Below, in pieces: positions 3,193-43,134 of a stretch of DNA of 45,402 nucleotides. Made by a program: the position numbers and the translations under genes. This DNA is from a virus (Duplodnaviria > Caudoviricetes): positions 1-45,402 of IMG/VR virus record IMGVR_UViG_3300046396_000018; one strand, 5' to 3'. The notes beneath the pieces were generated by a model. The model was not told the DNA's origin. It worked only from the letters and a program-made list of their open reading frames with translations, and did not search any database. Each line of letters begins with the position of its first letter. The stretch's first letter is position 1.

Positions 3193-4103
3193 GCCTAGAT
3201 CCCCTGACAACCATTCTCGCCCAGTGCACGGCCATCAACGCGAGCACGGCGGCGATCCAAGCGCAGGTGGCCGCGCTTCAAGCCGCACCAGCCCCTCCAA
3301 CCGCCCCAAGCGGCTCGACTGGCCTTTCCCCCTTCCGGATCGCTGGGGACGATTTTACGGGCTATTCCGGCCAAACAGCGAACCTTCAGAAGGTCATTAC
3401 GCCGAATATTGGCGGGACCGGGGGCGGAACCCTGCTCTACACAGATGGGGTGGCCCCGCAACTGGCATCTATCGACGCGAGTGTGCTCTATAACGGCCAT
3501 CCGACCATGAAGTACACCCAGCCGGGTGGGGGCGCTAGCACACCGGAGTTATGGGCGGGGCTTGGGAGCCAGACCTATACCCATCTCTGGCTCCGGGCGA
3601 AGATCCGCTTCTCGCCGGGCTTCACGACCACTGGCACACTCACGAATAGCGCGAACGCCTATAAGTTACTCGGCTGGGCCTGGGCGAACTACTACGGCAG
3701 CGGACGGCTGGAGATCTCGAACACCAATCAGTACCAGCTATATTGGACGGCGCTCGATAAGACCACGAGCGCGACCGTGGGAAGTGGCGCGACCGTTGGG
3801 ATTGCGGGCACTATCACGACCGAGTGGACCGACGGGGGATGGTATGATTACATCGTGGAAGTGAACTACGCCCAACCCACTGGGATCGTGCGCTTATGGA
3901 TGGACAAGGACGGACAAACACCAGTCCTTCGCACCACGATCTCCGGGACGATGCAGAATAGTCTCGCGATGCCCGCCCTCAATCAGGTGATGCTGGGGAT
4001 GAACTTCAACCAGGTCCGCACGGCAGGGCAGACGCAAGCGCTCTGGTACGGCCAATGGGAAGTGATCGATGGCAGTGCCCATCCCAACCCGTATAGCCTA
4101 TAG
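3189..4103 (+). CDS. Coiled-coil N-terminus plus ConA-like/polysaccharide-lyase-like beta-sandwich; paralog of residues ~570-830 of the upstream protein
   Basis: ATGA overlap with the upstream gene; LWLRAKIRFSPGF...YKL...W..IVEV...GIVRLWMD pattern; collinear similarity to the neighbour. Confidence 0.6.
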   Translation: MSLDPLTTILAQCTAINASTAAIQAQVAALQAAPAPPTAPSGSTGLSPFRIAGDDFTGYSGQTANLQKVITPNIGGTGGGTLLYTDGVAPQLASIDASVLYNGHPTMKYTQPGGGASTPELWAGLGSQTYTHLWLRAKIRFSPGFTTTGTLTNSANAYKLLGWAWANYYGSGRLEISNTNQYQLYWTALDKTTSATVGSGATVGIAGTITTEWTDGGWYDYIVEVNYAQPTGIVRLWMDKDGQTPVLRTTISGTMQNSLAMPALNQVMLGMNFNQVRTAGQTQALWYGQWEVIDGSAHPNPYSL

Positions 4104-4865
4104 TGGACGGGGTCGTAACCGACAGGCGACGTTGTTCACACACAGTTCCCGGAGGAGGGGGATCTTGTCGACCACCGGGAGCTTCTTAATCGTCGTATAC
4201 TCTTGCCACTCGACCGTAAACCACGGTTGGTCAGCAAGGAGCTGTTCCCATTTTCGGAGGGAGAGCTTCCCAAGTCCCGCCTCGTGGTAGGACGTTGGGG
4301 TGCCATCGTGACGATAGCGTTGGCGGACGGTGAGGACGGTGTGTTCCGAGAAGAGTAGATGCACCCACGGCACCGGCGTAAAGAAGTACATGTGTGCTCC
4401 CCAAGGGGAGTACCACGGTGGCCCGAAGGAGATGAGTACCTGTCCCTCTGGGCGCAGGATGGTATGCATGTCATGTAGGACTTGCCGGGGATCTTGGATA
4501 TGCTCAAAGCAGTCCAGGGAAATGATGACGTCCACCGGCGGCGTGATAAGCGTCGTGGTGAATGCGACTTGTGCGTCTGGATGGTCATGGGCCGCGCGAA
4601 TCCGGGCCCGATTGACCGTCTCGGGATTCACATCCACACCCGTGACAAATAAGGCGCCCTGCTCTGCTAAGGCCACCGCTTGGTAGCCGCCCCCGCACCC
4701 GAAATCCACGACGCGCTTCCCTTGGATACGCTGGATGAGGTCCGGGAAGGCCCGTTTGAGGGTGATGAGTGGATCGGTCTGTTCCCAGCGATCATCCCCA
4801 CTGGACTGATCCACCGCGTCGACAGGATGCGAGAGGGCCTTAAGGATGGAGATCCCGAGAGTCAT
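4098..4865 (-). CDS. Class I SAM-dependent methyltransferase (255 aa; start revised to ATG 4865)
   Basis: VVDFGCGGG motif I, VTGVD, DVIISLDCFEHI, LRPEG; ATGA overlap with VRR-NUC stop. Confidence 0.9.
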   Translation of the reverse strand: MTLGISILKALSHPVDAVDQSSGDDRWEQTDPLITLKRAFPDLIQRIQGKRVVDFGCGGGYQAVALAEQGALFVTGVDVNPETVNRARIRAAHDHPDAQVAFTTTLITPPVDVIISLDCFEHIQDPRQVLHDMHTILRPEGQVLISFGPPWYSPWGAHMYFFTPVPWVHLLFSEHTVLTVRQRYRHDGTPTSYHEAGLGKLSLRKWEQLLADQPWFTVEWQEYTTIKKLPVVDKIPLLRELCVNNVACRLRPRPL

Positions 4866-15994: not shown

Positions 15995-16091
15995 AATGGC
16001 TGACTACTAATTGTAGGACGGTGGGCATACACCGTGATAGTGCGTAGGGCTGAGGGGTAGGTCAACATGCCCTCTCTCGGCATGGATAGGT

Positions 16092-16163
16092 CTGACGGTA
16101 GCTCAACTGGTAGAGCCGTGCCTGGTATGCGCGAGGTTGCGGGATCGTTCCCCGTCCGTCATA
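16092..16163 (+). tRNA. Degenerate tRNA-Thr(GGT)-like
   Basis: TGACGG/CCGTCA acceptor, GCTC/GAGC D arm, CGTGC-CTGGTAT-GCGCG anticodon arm, GCGGG/CCCGT T stem with atypical ATCGTTC loop; no CCA. Confidence 0.55.
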
Positions 16164-16260
16164 TACGCAGTGTTGGTGAAATCGGCATCCATGTATTACG
16201 TCGGGGGACGCCCCTCTATCATGATTGCCCGCTAAAAGGCCGCCACACTGCCCTCTCTCT

Positions 16261-16485
16261 ATGACTGCACACCGTAACATTGTTCTCCTCGGCATTCTCG
16301 CTGGTTTCGTATTTGGGGTTGGAACGACCCTGCTATTCTCCTCCCACCGAGTTATCCGGAAATCCCGGCAGAGTGTCGAGCATTGCGTTCCTCTCGGTCA
16401 TGGACCAGATTATCATGATGTCGAATGTCCGTCCGGCGTCTATCGTCTGTACGGCGATACCTTACGGATTAGACTTCACACATGA
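16261..16485 (+). CDS. Small protein with N-terminal TM segment
   Basis: IVLLGILAGFVFGVGTTLLF. Confidence 0.6.
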   Translation: MTAHRNIVLLGILAGFVFGVGTTLLFSSHRVIRKSRQSVEHCVPLGHGPDYHDVECPSGVYRLYGDTLRIRLHT

Positions 16486-16492
16486 GCTATCT

Positions 16493-16579
16493 GGAGGCGT
16501 GGCAGAGTCCGGCTTATTGCAGCGGTCCCGAAAACCGCAGGACAGCAATGTTCCCTGGGTTCAAATCCCCGCGCCTCTT
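16493..16579 (+). tRNA. trnS: tRNA-Ser(CGA), slightly non-canonical
   Basis: GGAGGCG/CGCCTCT acceptor, GCGGT-CCCGAAA-ACCGC anticodon arm, long variable arm, TTCAAAT T loop; C33, T-stem mismatch, no CCA. Confidence 0.8.
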
Positions 16580-16583
16580 TTGG

Positions 16584-16665
16584 AGAGAGATCGCATAATG
16601 GTATTGCAACGGCTTGCTAAGCTGTCGGCCTTACGGCTGTGTGGGTTCGAGTCCCACTCTCTCTG
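16584..16665 (+). tRNA. trnS: tRNA-Ser(GCT)
   Basis: AGAGAGA/TCTCTCT acceptor, ACGGC-TTGCTAA-GCTGT anticodon arm, long variable arm, GTGGG-TTCGAGT-CCCAC, G discriminator; no CCA. Confidence 0.9.
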
Positions 16666-40196: not shown

Positions 40197-40331
40197 TCGC
40201 GACAGTGATGTCGCCCAACTGGCGCCAGTGACGCCAGTATATATCTTACTGTCGCGACACCAGAAAAGCCTAAGTTATTATCATATATGGAGTTATAGAA
40301 ATCACTGGCGTTATAATGTCGCGACAGTGAC
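40197..40331. repeat. Cluster of CG(A/C)CAGT repeats in both orientations around an AT-rich core
   Basis: Copies at ~40197, 40221, 40231, 40317 (+) and ~40218, 40247, 40302 (-); AT-rich 40262-40300. Confidence 0.7.
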
Positions 40332-40343
40332 GAGGCAGTTGGT

Positions 40344-40574
40344 ATGCTAGCGGATACTGGCCAATCCCTCCCGCAGTTGGTCGTCTCCGTGGGATCACTC
40401 GTCCTCTCCAGCGGTACCCTCATGACGGCCGTCCTCCTCGCCCGACGGAAGGACGACATTTCTGGCGCGATCCAAGGCAAGGACGCCCTTCGGCAATGTG
40501 AACTCGACCGGGAGCGTTTAGAGCGCGAAAACGTGGCCTTACTGCGCCAACTCATGCAGGAGCACCACCCATGA
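40344..40574 (+). CDS. Single-TM plus coiled-coil protein (holin/antiholin-like)
   Basis: Hydrophobic N-half, charged C-half; first gene of the lysis cassette. Confidence 0.6.
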   Translation: MLADTGQSLPQLVVSVGSLVLSSGTLMTAVLLARRKDDISGAIQGKDALRQCELDRERLERENVALLRQLMQEHHP

Positions 40575-40678
40575 GCCTAATTGCCATCCTCATCGCGCTG
40601 GCCGTGGTCGCGCAAGCGGTGAGTCTCATTCTCTTGGTGCGGTTTGTTCGTCATACCACACCCCCAGAAAAGGACTAG
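40571..40678 (+). CDS. 35-aa single-TM peptide (not in the ORF track)
   Basis: MSLIAILIALAVVAQAVSLILLVRFVRHTTPPEKD; AGGAG RBS, ATGA coupling. Confidence 0.65.
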   Translation: MSLIAILIALAVVAQAVSLILLVRFVRHTTPPEKD

Positions 40679-40682
40679 CCTG

Positions 40683-41135
40683 ATGAACCACTCGAAGCCG
40701 CTCCTCCTCGTCGGGATTCTCTATGTCATCATCGTGCTCTGGCTGACCGTTGAACAACTCAGTGGCCACGTCTCGGTCATTGCGGATGATACGTACTTAC
40801 CCCGGGGCGTGGTCTACAACTGGCAAGCTATCCAAGTCTGGGGCCACTTTCTCACCGATAGCTGTCTCTGGGTCTGTAGTTGGTTGATCCCGGTCCAGCT
40901 CATGATACTATGGCGCCGGATGCCCTACACCCAAGGGATACAGCGGACCACGCTGATCGTGAGTTTCTCCGTCTTCGTCTTTGGGAGTGGGACGACGCGC
41001 GTGATGGACGTGATTAATCTCTGGGCACATTTCTACTGGGTGGATCTCTGGATCCGGTCGATTACGGCGCTCGCGGCGGTCACGACCGTCGTGATGCTCT
41101 GGCGCATTATCCCTAAGAAAGGAGCCCTCCCATGA
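40683..41135 (+). CDS. Four-TM protein homologous to the ethylene-receptor (ETR1-type) N-terminal membrane domain, metal ligands substituted
   Basis: H..TD.......IP..L, F..F...SGTTR.M....LW...YW....IR.ITA.....T...LW.IIPK..ALP. Confidence 0.75.
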   Translation: MNHSKPLLLVGILYVIIVLWLTVEQLSGHVSVIADDTYLPRGVVYNWQAIQVWGHFLTDSCLWVCSWLIPVQLMILWRRMPYTQGIQRTTLIVSFSVFVFGSGTTRVMDVINLWAHFYWVDLWIRSITALAAVTTVVMLWRIIPKKGALP

Positions 41136-41452
41136 CGCCAACGATCTGTTTAGAGATTACGTCCCTCATTTCGGTCCTCACGCTGGTCGGGATGTTGTTA
41201 TCACGGGCGATCGGGACCGGCTTCCAGCACGGCGAGTTGACGCGCTCTGTTAAAGAACTTGCGGCGGCTGTGATCGAGTTTAAGGATCTGTTTAAGGAAC
41301 ACGCCGGGCGGATCGAAGAGCACGAAGCCCGACTCGCTAAGCTAGAGTTCTGCCTCGACATCGATGGGAAGTCCATGGGTATTGTGCAGGACGTGGCCGA
41401 GATCCATCGCCGCCGTCAGCAGCGCCGACGGAATGGGGGGAACGAGTCGTGA
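41132..41452 (+). CDS. N-terminal TM plus coiled-coil protein (holin-associated)
   Basis: Hydrophobic N-terminus, RIEEHEARLAKLE. Confidence 0.65.
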   Translation: MTPTICLEITSLISVLTLVGMLLSRAIGTGFQHGELTRSVKELAAAVIEFKDLFKEHAGRIEEHEARLAKLEFCLDIDGKSMGIVQDVAEIHRRRQQRRRNGGNES

Positions 41453-41775
41453 AATGGCTGAATCTGACCGATGCGGAAGGGATGATCTTGAAGATCTTGG
41501 TAGGGTGTGTGGGGTTTCTATTAGTCGTCATCGCGGTGTGTATCTGTATGACGCGCAGTATTAAAGTCGAAGGAGGGTTTCTCTGGCCGATTATCGCTAT
41601 GATCTGTGGCTTTGCGGGGATTAGCTCTTTTGACTTCTCGCAATTCCGGAAGAGTGACTACGGCTTCGTGCGCGAGAAAGGGGAAGCGGATGCGAAAGTT
41701 GCGGCGGCGACCAAGGCGCCTACACCTTCTCCGGTCGTCCAACCCCCGGCAGCGGCCGTGGAGATCCATTCATGA
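41449..41775 (+). CDS. Two-TM holin candidate
   Basis: Two TM segments and a charged C-tail, upstream of endolysin. Confidence 0.6.
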   Translation: MKWLNLTDAEGMILKILVGCVGFLLVVIAVCICMTRSIKVEGGFLWPIIAMICGFAGISSFDFSQFRKSDYGFVREKGEADAKVAAATKAPTPSPVVQPPAAAVEIHS

Positions 41776-41784
41776 GGCCGAGCG

Positions 41785-42207
41785 ATGGACCAAGTCAGTT
41801 GGCGCGAGTACGTCGATGCCCGGTGCGATGCAATCGAGAAACGGATCGAGGCCGCCATGTTAGCTAATCGCGACCGGATTATCGCGACTGACAAAGCCAT
41901 CGACGCGGTCTTTGCCTCGATCAAGGAATCGGTGGCCAAGAAGGAGCAAGCCGACGACCGCCGCTTCGAGTCGGTGAACGAGTTTCGGTCGACCTTGTCG
42001 GACAGCGCCCGACTCGTTATGCCCCGGATCGAATCCGAGCGGATGCACCAATCCACGCACGAGAAGATCGAGGAATTGACCAAGCGCATGATCCGCTTCG
42101 AGGAACAAGGACGAGGCAGTCACCAAAGTTGGCAAACGATTGTGGCAGCGGCCGGGGTGATTATCCCCATTCTTTCGCTGATCTACCTCCTCACCAAATC
42201 ACACTGA
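41785..42207 (+). CDS. Coiled-coil protein with C-terminal TM (lysis-associated)
   Basis: REYVDAR...RFESVNEFR..L.D...; terminal hydrophobic segment. Confidence 0.65.
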   Translation: MDQVSWREYVDARCDAIEKRIEAAMLANRDRIIATDKAIDAVFASIKESVAKKEQADDRRFESVNEFRSTLSDSARLVMPRIESERMHQSTHEKIEELTKRMIRFEEQGRGSHQSWQTIVAAAGVIIPILSLIYLLTKSH

Positions 42208-42214
42208 GCGCCGT

Positions 42215-42625
42215 ATGAGCCTTACATGGGATTGTTCCGACGCGGATCTTGAGCCGCAATTCAAAGCCGATGTGGTCGACTTACTGACTAATAGCCCGTA
42301 TGACTGGCACATCGAGTACGGCTACCGCACCATCGCGGAGCAGACCAAGCTCTATGAAGCGCATCTCGCCGGTGGCCCGTTAGCCGCTCCGCCGGGGCAT
42401 TCGGCGCACAACTTCGGTCTCGCGGTCGACGTGCAATTGATCGTGGGCGGTGTGGCCGACTGGGATACCTCGCATCCGGGCTGGCAGTGGTTGTTTGCGG
42501 CAGTGCTCGCGGCCCCGAGACTGCACTCGGGACGCGGATTTGGCGACGACGATCATATTGAACGCGTCAACTGGCATCTGTACGAGCACTGGAACGATAC
42601 ACCGCCGACTCCGGTGGCAACATGA
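42215..42625 (+). CDS. Endolysin, peptidase M15 family
   Basis: GYRTIAEQTKLY...APPGHSAHNFGLAVD...DDDHIE zinc-peptidase motifs. Confidence 0.9.
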   Translation: MSLTWDCSDADLEPQFKADVVDLLTNSPYDWHIEYGYRTIAEQTKLYEAHLAGGPLAAPPGHSAHNFGLAVDVQLIVGGVADWDTSHPGWQWLFAAVLAAPRLHSGRGFGDDDHIERVNWHLYEHWNDTPPTPVAT

Positions 42626-43134
42626 CCGCCCTCTTGCTCCTCTTGAAGCCACACGCTGTGCTGATCGGTTCGTGTGTGATGCTCGCCGCGGGTAGTTTCT
42701 GGATTGGCTACGATCTCGGGAAACCCAAGACGCCACTCACCGTCCAGCAAGCCCAGCAGCAAGTAAAGCTGATGCACGACACGGTCAGTAAGACGGATAC
42801 ACTCGTCAAGCTCAAGACCAAAATACTGGCCCACACCGATACGACTTACCAACAGGTCCGCGACACCGTACTCAGGTACATCCACGATACCACGGTCGTG
42901 AAGCAATTCGTGCAAGCGTGCGATTCGCTCAAGTCGTCCTGTGATGCCTTCCGTACCGCTGCCCAATCCAAGTTCCACGCCGATAGCGGACTGGTTGCCG
43001 CACTGACGCAAGAAAACGTCGCGTGGAAGGCGTCTCGACCGTCCAGATTGCACACTGTGGCGACCACCATGCTGTATGCGGCGGTAGGTTTTGGACTCTG
43101 CAAAGCCGCTCCCTCGATTCCCTTCCTGCATTAA
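42622..43134 (+). CDS. Spanin-like protein
   Basis: N-terminal TM, coiled coil, C-terminal hydrophobic segment; directly after endolysin. Confidence 0.55.
   Translation: MTALLLLLKPHAVLIGSCVMLAAGSFWIGYDLGKPKTPLTVQQAQQQVKLMHDTVSKTDTLVKLKTKILAHTDTTYQQVRDTVLRYIHDTTVVKQFVQACDSLKSSCDAFRTAAQSKFHADSGLVAALTQENVAWKASRPSRLHTVATTMLYAAVGFGLCKAAPSIPFLH

What the first reader, a model, noticed from the sequence alone, without database searches (positions are those of the whole stretch)
40683..41135. Stand-alone, metal-less ethylene-receptor-like domain embedded in the lysis cassette
Seen: a 150-aa four-TM protein, coupled among holin-like genes upstream of an M15 endolysin. From recalled family knowledge, its last three TMs align collinearly with the ETR1-type ethylene-binding domain of plant receptors and bacterial sensor kinases (consensus-like FMPHGHCYLW...H..SD.....AY.SIP...F..FI..CG.TH....TLW...YW....K..TA..S..TA..L...IP...ALP). 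In Arabidopsis ETR1 numbering D25, I35, P36, F58, F61, G66, T68, T94, T101 and P110 appear kept. The Cu(I) ligands are replaced (C65 to S, H69 to R: SGTTR), as are Y32 (S), K91 (R) and the PHGHCY motif (PRGVVY). No GAF or kinase output domain is attached. Inference: a captured sensor domain repurposed as a holin/antiholin or lysis-timing regulator, or a dominant-negative decoy that dimerises with host sensor kinases. I know of no described phage example.
Basis: partly seen in the sequence, partly recalled or inferred. Interest (0 to 1): 0.85.

Follow-up and report, generated by a model that had tools for sequence, protein, structure and literature searches.

The report
Phage ethylene-receptor domain lacking copper site
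A soil phage carries, among its host-bursting genes, a small free-standing membrane protein that is a true copy of the sensing domain of plant and bacterial ethylene receptors but has lost the residues that hold copper, so it likely works as a signal-blind partner in the lysis machinery, while relatives in other phages keep the site and might time lysis by a signal.

Summary
Confirmed. Window 40683-41135 encodes a 150-aa, four-helix membrane protein of Pfam ETR1_N (E 2e-17, 63.6 bits, cut-off 27). It has no output domain and lies in a tightly coupled run of small membrane genes 1.1 kb upstream of an M15 endolysin. It has lost the copper-site residues (C102S, H106R, Y66S) and the His/Cys of the PHGxC motif. 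All 160 homologs ranked by likeness to it keep the His, and its closest relative keeps all five, while 17 of 19 other near-invariant positions are unchanged. K91-to-R is not a loss, and 'metal-less' is predicted, not shown. Of 23 viral contigs with the domain, 22 carry it stand-alone, all keep CxxxH, and 10 of 22 (6 of 14 lineages) have an endolysin within 1.7 kb. Some bacteria encode the domain separately, just before a membrane kinase. Best reading (0.5): a signal-blind variant of a phage lysis-cassette membrane subunit. Rivals: slow decay, a pore itself, a host-kinase decoy. Function is untested. No paper found; this scan noted the family before on other DNA (8 notes). New here: the concerted loss of the ligands.

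The parts
40683..41135 (+). Stand-alone ETR1_N protein, 150 aa: one extra N-terminal TM helix plus the three ETR1 helices; predicted N-in/C-in; Cu-site residues and PHGxC His/Cys replaced (H41R, C44V, Y66S, C102S, H106R); D59 and R125 kept
   Evidence: topology inferred from charges
40344..40574 (+). 76-aa protein, one N-terminal TM and a charged, likely coiled-coil tail; first gene of the membrane cluster
   Evidence: only a weak match to phrog_11860 (unknown function), E 0.013
40571..40678 (+). 35-aa single-TM peptide; overlaps the previous stop and ends 4 nt before the ETR1_N start
   Evidence: no family match
41132..41452 (+). 106-aa protein, one N-terminal TM and a charged, likely coiled-coil tail; ATGA overlap with the ETR1_N stop; candidate partner
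   Evidence: weak phrog_1009 (E 0.023) and phrog_1193 'hemolysin' (E 0.076)
41449..41775 (+). 108-aa two-TM protein; best holin candidate by shape
   Evidence: no holin family match
41785..42207 (+). 140-aa likely coiled-coil protein with a C-terminal TM
   Evidence: weak phrog_2990, E 0.0096
42215..42625 (+). M15-family zinc peptidase endolysin, 136 aa
   Evidence: Pfam VanY E 4.1e-6, over its cut-off; phrog_465 endolysin E 6.2e-9
42622..43134 (+). 170-aa protein with an N-terminal TM and helical body; possibly spanin-like (by shape and place only)
   Evidence: no family match of note
40197..40330 (.). Intergenic stretch before the cluster: AT-rich, one sigma-70-like site, two copies of a 10-bp palindrome (40250, 40317); possible promoter/operator of the cassette
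   Evidence: promoter count (1) is not above chance (mean 1.7)

Best explanation
The gene encodes a real, stand-alone ETR1_N membrane domain with its copper-site residues replaced, and it likely serves as a signal-blind membrane subunit of the phage's lysis-control module. Shown: the homology, the missing output domain, tight coupling to small TM genes and an endolysin, the same setting in unrelated phages, and loss of the five ligand-type residues with the scaffold kept. Inferred: phages took the sensing domain of bacterial ETR1-type kinases and use it in trans on a neighbouring membrane protein (a holin or a one-TM holin regulator), much as some bacteria encode the domain separately just before a membrane kinase. 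In relatives with CxxxH, a Cu(I)-bound ligand (ethylene, another small gas, or copper itself) would shift lysis timing. In this phage the site is gone, so the protein would be fixed in one state, like the dominant Cu-less etr1-1 receptor, and would act as a constant partner (antiholin-like brake or assembly factor). R106 might pair with the kept D59 in place of the metal; this was not measured.
For: Pfam ETR1_N over cut-off; four-helix model. Coupling by 4-nt gaps and overlaps, GC3 like core genes. Of 24 columns at least 95% conserved in the 149 homologs, 7 are changed: the five ligand-type residues plus two conservative swaps (I99V, S132A). Chance p is 5e-4 for all five (grouping partly after the fact) and 0.017 for the a priori trio Y/C/H. 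H106 is kept in 160 of 160 homologs, though 149 of them were ranked by likeness to this protein. Against its sister P0002 the excess change falls below p 0.05 for 6 of 7 outgroups once the five columns are removed. Viral survey: 22 of 23 contigs stand-alone; endolysin within 1.7 kb in 10 of 22, 6 of 14 lineages, binomial p 8e-4 at a 9% base rate and 0.044 at 20%. One-TM charged proteins flank the gene in most loci. Four of 80 bacterial copies are stand-alone, each just before a two-TM histidine kinase. One-TM plus multi-TM pairs control lysis in mycobacteriophages (PMC13056207). Cu-less ETR1 C65Y is dominant (PMC10266040).
Against: No function was tested and no binding partner was shown. No ligand-less relative was found, so selection on this variant could not be measured by dN/dS. 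The branch to this protein is longer than its sister's (0.88 against 0.38); with all columns the excess is significant for 4 of 7 outgroups. Five stand-alone viral contigs (L010, L021, L026, L045, L059) showed no endolysin among the neighbours scanned, five are cut short by contig ends, and two have only a probable one. Membrane genes of all kinds gather in late regions, so the random-placement null is generous. The one-TM neighbours are not detectably homologous to each other or to this window's. None of the window's TM genes matches a holin family.
Confidence: 0.5

Rival explanations
1. A decaying gene: the ancestor was a working copper sensor in the cassette, the function became useless in this lineage, and the protein is drifting towards loss.
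For: All 22 distinct viral homologs and the sister P0002 keep CxxxH, so this copy is the odd one. Branch 0.88 against 0.38; 15-20 against 5-11 private changes. Scaffold score ranks 9th or 18th of 26, depending on the reference set, below its sister in both. An open frame is weak evidence: 20-40 random base changes leave it open in 28-50% of trials.
Against: Losses fall on ligand-type residues, while 17 of the other 19 near-invariant columns are unchanged and the two others are conservative. Three of the five codons (CGG, GTC, AGT at 41, 44, 66) are at least two base changes from the family residue, so the loss is old, yet start signal, overlap and GC3 are intact.
Confidence: 0.25
2. The protein is itself the pore or depolarising element (a holin or pinholin built on the ETR1 helix bundle); the copper site is irrelevant to that role and so could be lost.
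For: Four TM helices with a basic C-terminal tail, predicted N-in/C-in. Rice OsERS1 was reported to be a cation channel whose activity does not need Cys65 (PMC13261662, abstract and section 8).
Against: The cassette has a more typical two-TM candidate (41449) and several one-TM proteins. No holin family match. The rice channel activity needs Cys4/Cys6, which have no counterpart here, and rests on one paper. Relatives keep the ligands strictly, which a plain pore would not need.
Confidence: 0.13
3. A dominant-negative decoy that pairs with a host ETR1-type sensor kinase and blocks or fixes its signalling.
For: Stand-alone ETR1_N beside kinases in Maricaulis and Sericytochromatia genomes suggests the domain can act in trans on kinases. 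ETR1-type kinases are common in soil bacteria. Cu-less ETR1 is dominant in plants. Some phage copies sit with stand-alone PAS domains (L013, L016), and one 279-kb phage has a full ETR1_N-HWE kinase (L042).
Against: The gene lies in the late region, overlapping lysis-type genes. Plant heterodimers are thought to form through GAF (PMC4479046), absent here. The host is unknown (one search found no prophage relative). The repeated link to endolysins is unexplained.
Confidence: 0.1

Closest known systems
Ethylene-binding domain (Pfam PF25487 ETR1_N) of Arabidopsis ETR1, Synechocystis SynEtr1 and Azospirillum AzoEtr1
   Same: Three collinear TM helices, Asp25 equivalent, IP motif, FxxF, GxT, W/Y, basic residue at Lys91, TA and P motifs.
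   Different: No GAF, PAS or kinase; Cys65, His69 and Tyr32 equivalents replaced, as are the His and Cys of the bacterial PHGxC motif; one extra N-terminal TM; viral, in a lysis cassette.
Stand-alone bacterial ETR1_N genes directly before two-TM histidine kinases (Maricaulis, Ca. Sericytochromatia; seen here in L068, L071, L130, L139)
   Same: Free-standing domain placed next to another membrane protein.
   Different: They keep all ligands and the neighbour is a kinase. This phage has no kinase, receiver or PAS match among the 66 proteins scanned.
Multi-gene lysis cassettes with a one-TM regulator (LysF1a/LysF1b of mycobacteriophages Girr and NormanBulbieJr, PMC13056207)
   Same: Several coupled TM genes beside an endolysin, including one-TM proteins with charged tails.
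   Different: No sequence match found to those families (no DUF2746 hit); LysF1a has two TMs and no sensor ancestry; their function was shown by deletion, this one's is not.
etr1-1 (Cys65Tyr), the copper-less dominant ethylene receptor mutant
   Same: Scaffold kept, Cu ligand lost, so blind to the signal (PMC10266040).
   Different: A laboratory point mutant of a full receptor with output domains; here a natural protein with five replacements and no output.

Membership tests
Pfam PF25487 ETR1_N domain | Profile score above the curated cut-off over most of the model | tested here: met
   63.6 bits against 27; model positions 3-93 of 97
Pfam PF25487 ETR1_N domain | Three collinear transmembrane helices | tested here: met
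   Model helices 49-79, 86-114, 118-146, pLDDT 78-95 in those blocks; alignments
Pfam PF25487 ETR1_N domain | Fold match to a solved ethylene-binding domain | tested here: inconclusive
   No relative among solved structures by sequence or profile; fold searches gave only generic helical bundles
Functional ethylene receptors (ETR1, SynEtr1, AzoEtr1) | Cys and His copper ligands in helix II (CxxxH) | tested here: not met
   S102 and R106
Functional ethylene receptors (ETR1, SynEtr1, AzoEtr1) | Asp in helix I (D25) and basic partner in helix III (K91) | tested here: met
   D59 and R125; K91R is tolerated in ETR1
Functional ethylene receptors (ETR1, SynEtr1, AzoEtr1) | Tyr in helix I (Y32; its need for binding is recalled, not found in the papers read) | tested here: not met
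   S66; Tyr in 159 of 160 homologs
Functional ethylene receptors (ETR1, SynEtr1, AzoEtr1) | Attached output domain (GAF, PAS, histidine kinase) | tested here: not met
   Stop at residue 150; next gene is a one-TM protein; no kinase in the genome
Functional ethylene receptors (ETR1, SynEtr1, AzoEtr1) | Cu(I) and ethylene binding | not testable with these tools
   needs a bench assay
Functional ethylene receptors (ETR1, SynEtr1, AzoEtr1) | Homodimer | not tested
Holins and antiholins | Small membrane protein encoded in a cassette with an endolysin | tested here: met
Holins and antiholins | Match to a described holin family | tested here: not met
   only ETR1_N in Pfam at E up to 1 and nothing in PHROGs at E up to 0.1
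Holins and antiholins | Timed membrane lesion, or delay of one, triggered by energy poisons | not testable with these tools
   needs a lysis assay

The most novel reading that the evidence does not exclude
Many unrelated soil and freshwater phages have built the copper-containing sensor of ethylene receptors into their lysis cassettes as a separate subunit, so that a small gas or metal signal sets the time of lysis directly in the membrane, without a kinase or transcription. This phage carries a naturally locked form in which the whole metal site was removed and the scaffold kept, which shows that the domain has a lysis role separable from sensing and gives a ready-made control for testing it.
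Probability: 0.3. Interest if true: 0.88.

Novelty: new variant of a known kind. Interest (0 to 1): 0.62.

Why it matters
If true, phages would tune lysis through a ligand-binding membrane domain taken from two-component signalling, a kind of lysis control I found no paper on. It would tie ethylene or copper sensing in soil to phage life cycles. The natural pair (ligand-intact P0002, L015 or L024 against this ligand-less protein) makes the question testable. The joint loss of the PHGxC His/Cys with CxxxH and Tyr also suggests that the bacterial PHGxC motif belongs to the same metal-handling function, a lead for work on bacterial ethylene receptors.

Tried and rejected
No close relative of the protein was found: word-index searches at similar and longer lengths, viral scans with the protein, its sister, or their alignment, and a metagenome scan with the protein; the second metagenome scan returned 5 loci, read as cellular kinase loci in the four whose gene was printed or whose neighbours showed it. 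Annotated phages: only chance matches or none with three queries. Solved structures: nothing by sequence; Foldseek had no match at E 0.001; VIA-align's best Z of 9.2 is within the noise for helical bundles. One predicted viral structure matched (A0A8E4UZR7, 289 aa, TM 0.65, E 3.7e-3, unnamed) and could not be traced. Host: no prophage relative of the capsid protein in 185,579 genomes. One related phage contig (L060, 77-82% nucleotide identity) does not reach the cassette, and no relative of the endolysin was found. No RNA holder was listed; a third run covered only short pieces outside the gene. Rejected: assembly error (identical in two other assemblies, though possibly the same source); a split or frameshifted kinase (next gene unrelated, no kinase in the genome); K91R as a loss; C61 and C65 as a likely replacement site (about 200 and 240 degrees from D59 on an ideal helix, in columns that are aliphatic or A/S in the family), though that is not excluded. 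Five of 15 stretches from the ligand-blind pattern scan were chance matches and were dropped. One search's counts (73 of 73 short proteins with C and H) are biased towards intact sequences and were not used as support.

Full report
Setting. The window is a whole virus record of 45,402 bases with direct terminal repeats (127 bp). It is a tailed phage with terminase, P22-like portal, major head protein, SU10-type adaptors and three tRNAs. The two runs that hold the region are labelled soil metagenome, and both may be the source of this DNA. The host is unknown.

The ORF 40683-41135 gives 150 aa and matches Pfam ETR1_N at E 2.1e-17, 63.6 bits against a cut-off of 27. It aligns with AzoEtr1 of Azospirillum brasilense Sp7, which I identified by its D35, C75, H79 and K98, at 31% over 115 residues. 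ETR1 numbers below come through that mapping; Arabidopsis ETR1 was not fetched, and the identity of its residues other than D25, C65, T68, H69 and K91 is recalled. An AlphaFold2 model from 126 sequences has four long helices (pLDDT 82.6). Charge distribution suggests N-in/C-in with the PRGVV loop outside, the ETR1 orientation; plant subfamily 2 receptors also have four TM regions (PMC4479046, passages). The protein stops where the domain ends. No kinase, receiver or PAS domain was found among 66 window proteins scanned (11, 55). The gene is coupled on both sides within a run of five other small TM genes that leads to an M15 endolysin 1.08 kb downstream. None of those TM genes matches a holin family.

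What was lost. Against 149 homologs ranked by likeness to this protein (the best 150 of 2,647 hits) and 11 viral ones, it alone has replaced H41, C44, Y66, C102 and H106. H106 is kept in 160 of 160, and no other sequence lacks more than three of the five. Of 24 columns at least 95% conserved in the 149, 7 are changed: those five and two conservative swaps. The chance is 5e-4 for all five, a grouping made partly after the fact, and 0.017 for the a priori trio. At the looser 80% level, 14 of 34 columns are changed, 4 of 4 His/Cys against 10 of 30 others (p 0.022). The closest relative, P0002 (147 aa, 43% identity, same extra helix, support 0.95 in the tree), keeps all five. Its genomic context is not available. 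R125 is not a loss. 'Metal-less' remains a prediction: ETR1 C65S;H69A keeps some D25-dependent copper binding (PMC10266040, passages), and D59 and H55 remain.

Selection or decay. The branch to this protein is 0.88 against 0.38 for P0002. Relative-rate tests are significant for 4 of 7 outgroups with all columns and for 1 of 7 (p 0.0495) without the five ligand columns. Its scaffold score lies within the range of intact viral homologs, 9th or 18th of 26 by reference set, and below its sister in both. An open frame alone proves little. The pattern fits a targeted loss of metal binding with a kept scaffold better than even decay, but decay is not excluded, and no sister gene was found for dN/dS.

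The viral family. Three scans gave 23 IMG/VR contigs with the domain (L013 and L014 carry the same gene). Twenty-two have it stand-alone (114-222 aa); one, a 279-kb phage, has a full ETR1_N-HWE kinase. All 22 distinct sequences keep CxxxH. Two scans used patterns with ligand residues and so favour intact copies. The pattern did not: 10 of its 15 stretches were true, all intact. An endolysin lies within 1.7 kb in 10 of 22 contigs: lysozymes in L015 and L016, M15 in L024, phrog_315 in L052, GH108 in L053-L057, and a glucosaminidase-like protein in L012 by language-model features only. Two more have a probable one (DUF5675 in L048, phrog_3108 in L025; their lytic role is recalled, not shown). Five are cut by contig ends (L011, L013, L014, L017, L058). 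Five showed none among the neighbours scanned, which were a subset chosen near the gene (L010, L021, L026, L045, L059). By lineage this is 6 of 14 (p 8e-4 at a 9% base rate, 0.044 at 20%), with different endolysin classes, which argues for repeated recruitment or retention. The null is generous, since membrane genes gather in late regions. One-TM charged proteins flank most copies but are not detectably homologous as a group. Stand-alone PAS domains follow in L013 and L016. The ESM Atlas lists clusters of short ETR1_N proteins that are mostly viral.

A cellular precedent. Of 80 bacterial loci kept from 140, 75 have the domain fused to a long tail, one is cut by a contig end and four are stand-alone. 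Those four, in Maricaulis and Ca. Sericytochromatia, each lie just before a two-TM histidine kinase. All 80 keep Y, C and H (the scan pattern favoured the PHGxC residues). So the domain occurs as a separate gene beside a membrane partner; that it binds the partner is inferred.

Mechanism. Shown: homology, no output domain, cassette position, family-wide link to endolysins, lineage-specific ligand loss. Inferred: the domain binds a neighbouring TM protein and affects holin triggering. One-TM regulators acting with multi-TM proteins are documented in mycobacteriophages (PMC13056207, abstract and passages). With CxxxH the effect would depend on a copper-bound ligand. Without it the protein would be fixed, as the copper-less etr1-1 receptor is. 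I put this at 0.5, decay at 0.25, a pore role at 0.13 (a rice receptor was reported to conduct cations independently of Cys65; PMC13261662, abstract and section 8) and a host decoy at 0.1. No complex prediction was available, so binding is open.

Novelty. The domain is known. Searches for a phage example found nothing relevant (listings only, and the library lacks most subscription papers; no supplements were read). Annotated phage genomes gave no hit. Eight earlier notes of this scan describe stand-alone or holin-fused ETR1_N in other phages, one with the copper site lost; they are unchecked leads, and none covers this genome or sequence. This protein is a member of the ETR1_N family by sequence but fails the tests for a working ethylene receptor. 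I rate it a new variant of a known kind, interest 0.62.

Noticed in passing
L042:4956-6071 (279-kb viral contig): A jumbo phage encodes a full ETR1_N-HWE histidine kinase with all ligands, sister to AzoEtr1 in the tree (support 0.96); a possible intermediate in capture of the domain.
   Followed up: partly
L068:5980-7861, L071:5977-8245, L130:5947-8081, L139:2001-4111: Stand-alone ETR1_N genes directly before two-TM histidine kinases in Ca. Sericytochromatia and Maricaulis: possible split ethylene-type receptors.
   Followed up: partly
L013:6431-7535; L016:5531-5989: Stand-alone PAS-domain genes right after the stand-alone ETR1_N in phage late regions, with no kinase among the neighbours scanned.
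   Followed up: no
window 40197-40330: Two exact copies of a 10-bp palindrome 67 nt apart flank an AT-rich stretch before the cassette; the only such matches in the window even at one mismatch, though two matches at that level are expected by chance. Possible operator.
   Followed up: partly
window 40863-40877 (codons 61 and 65): Two new cysteines, CxxxC, in helix I, on a face away from D59; could form an inter-subunit link or another metal site.
   Followed up: partly
L015:5639-6067: The lysozyme next to the ETR1_N gene reads as two short ORFs, both matching phrog_7.
   Followed up: no
L021 (350-kb viral contig): Stand-alone ETR1_N in a jumbo phage among RF-1, DUF72, DUF3309, glycine-zipper lipoproteins and a GH1 gene, not a lysis cassette.
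   Followed up: no
window 16091-16665: Three tRNA genes (Thr-GGT, Ser-CGA, Ser-GCT) before the terminase.
   Followed up: no
window 4098-4865 (-): SAM-dependent methyltransferase at the end of the early operon.
   Followed up: no
BFVD A0A8E4UZR7: An unnamed 289-aa viral protein matches the model (TM 0.65, E 3.7e-3); possibly a fused ETR1_N in a deposited virus.
   Followed up: no
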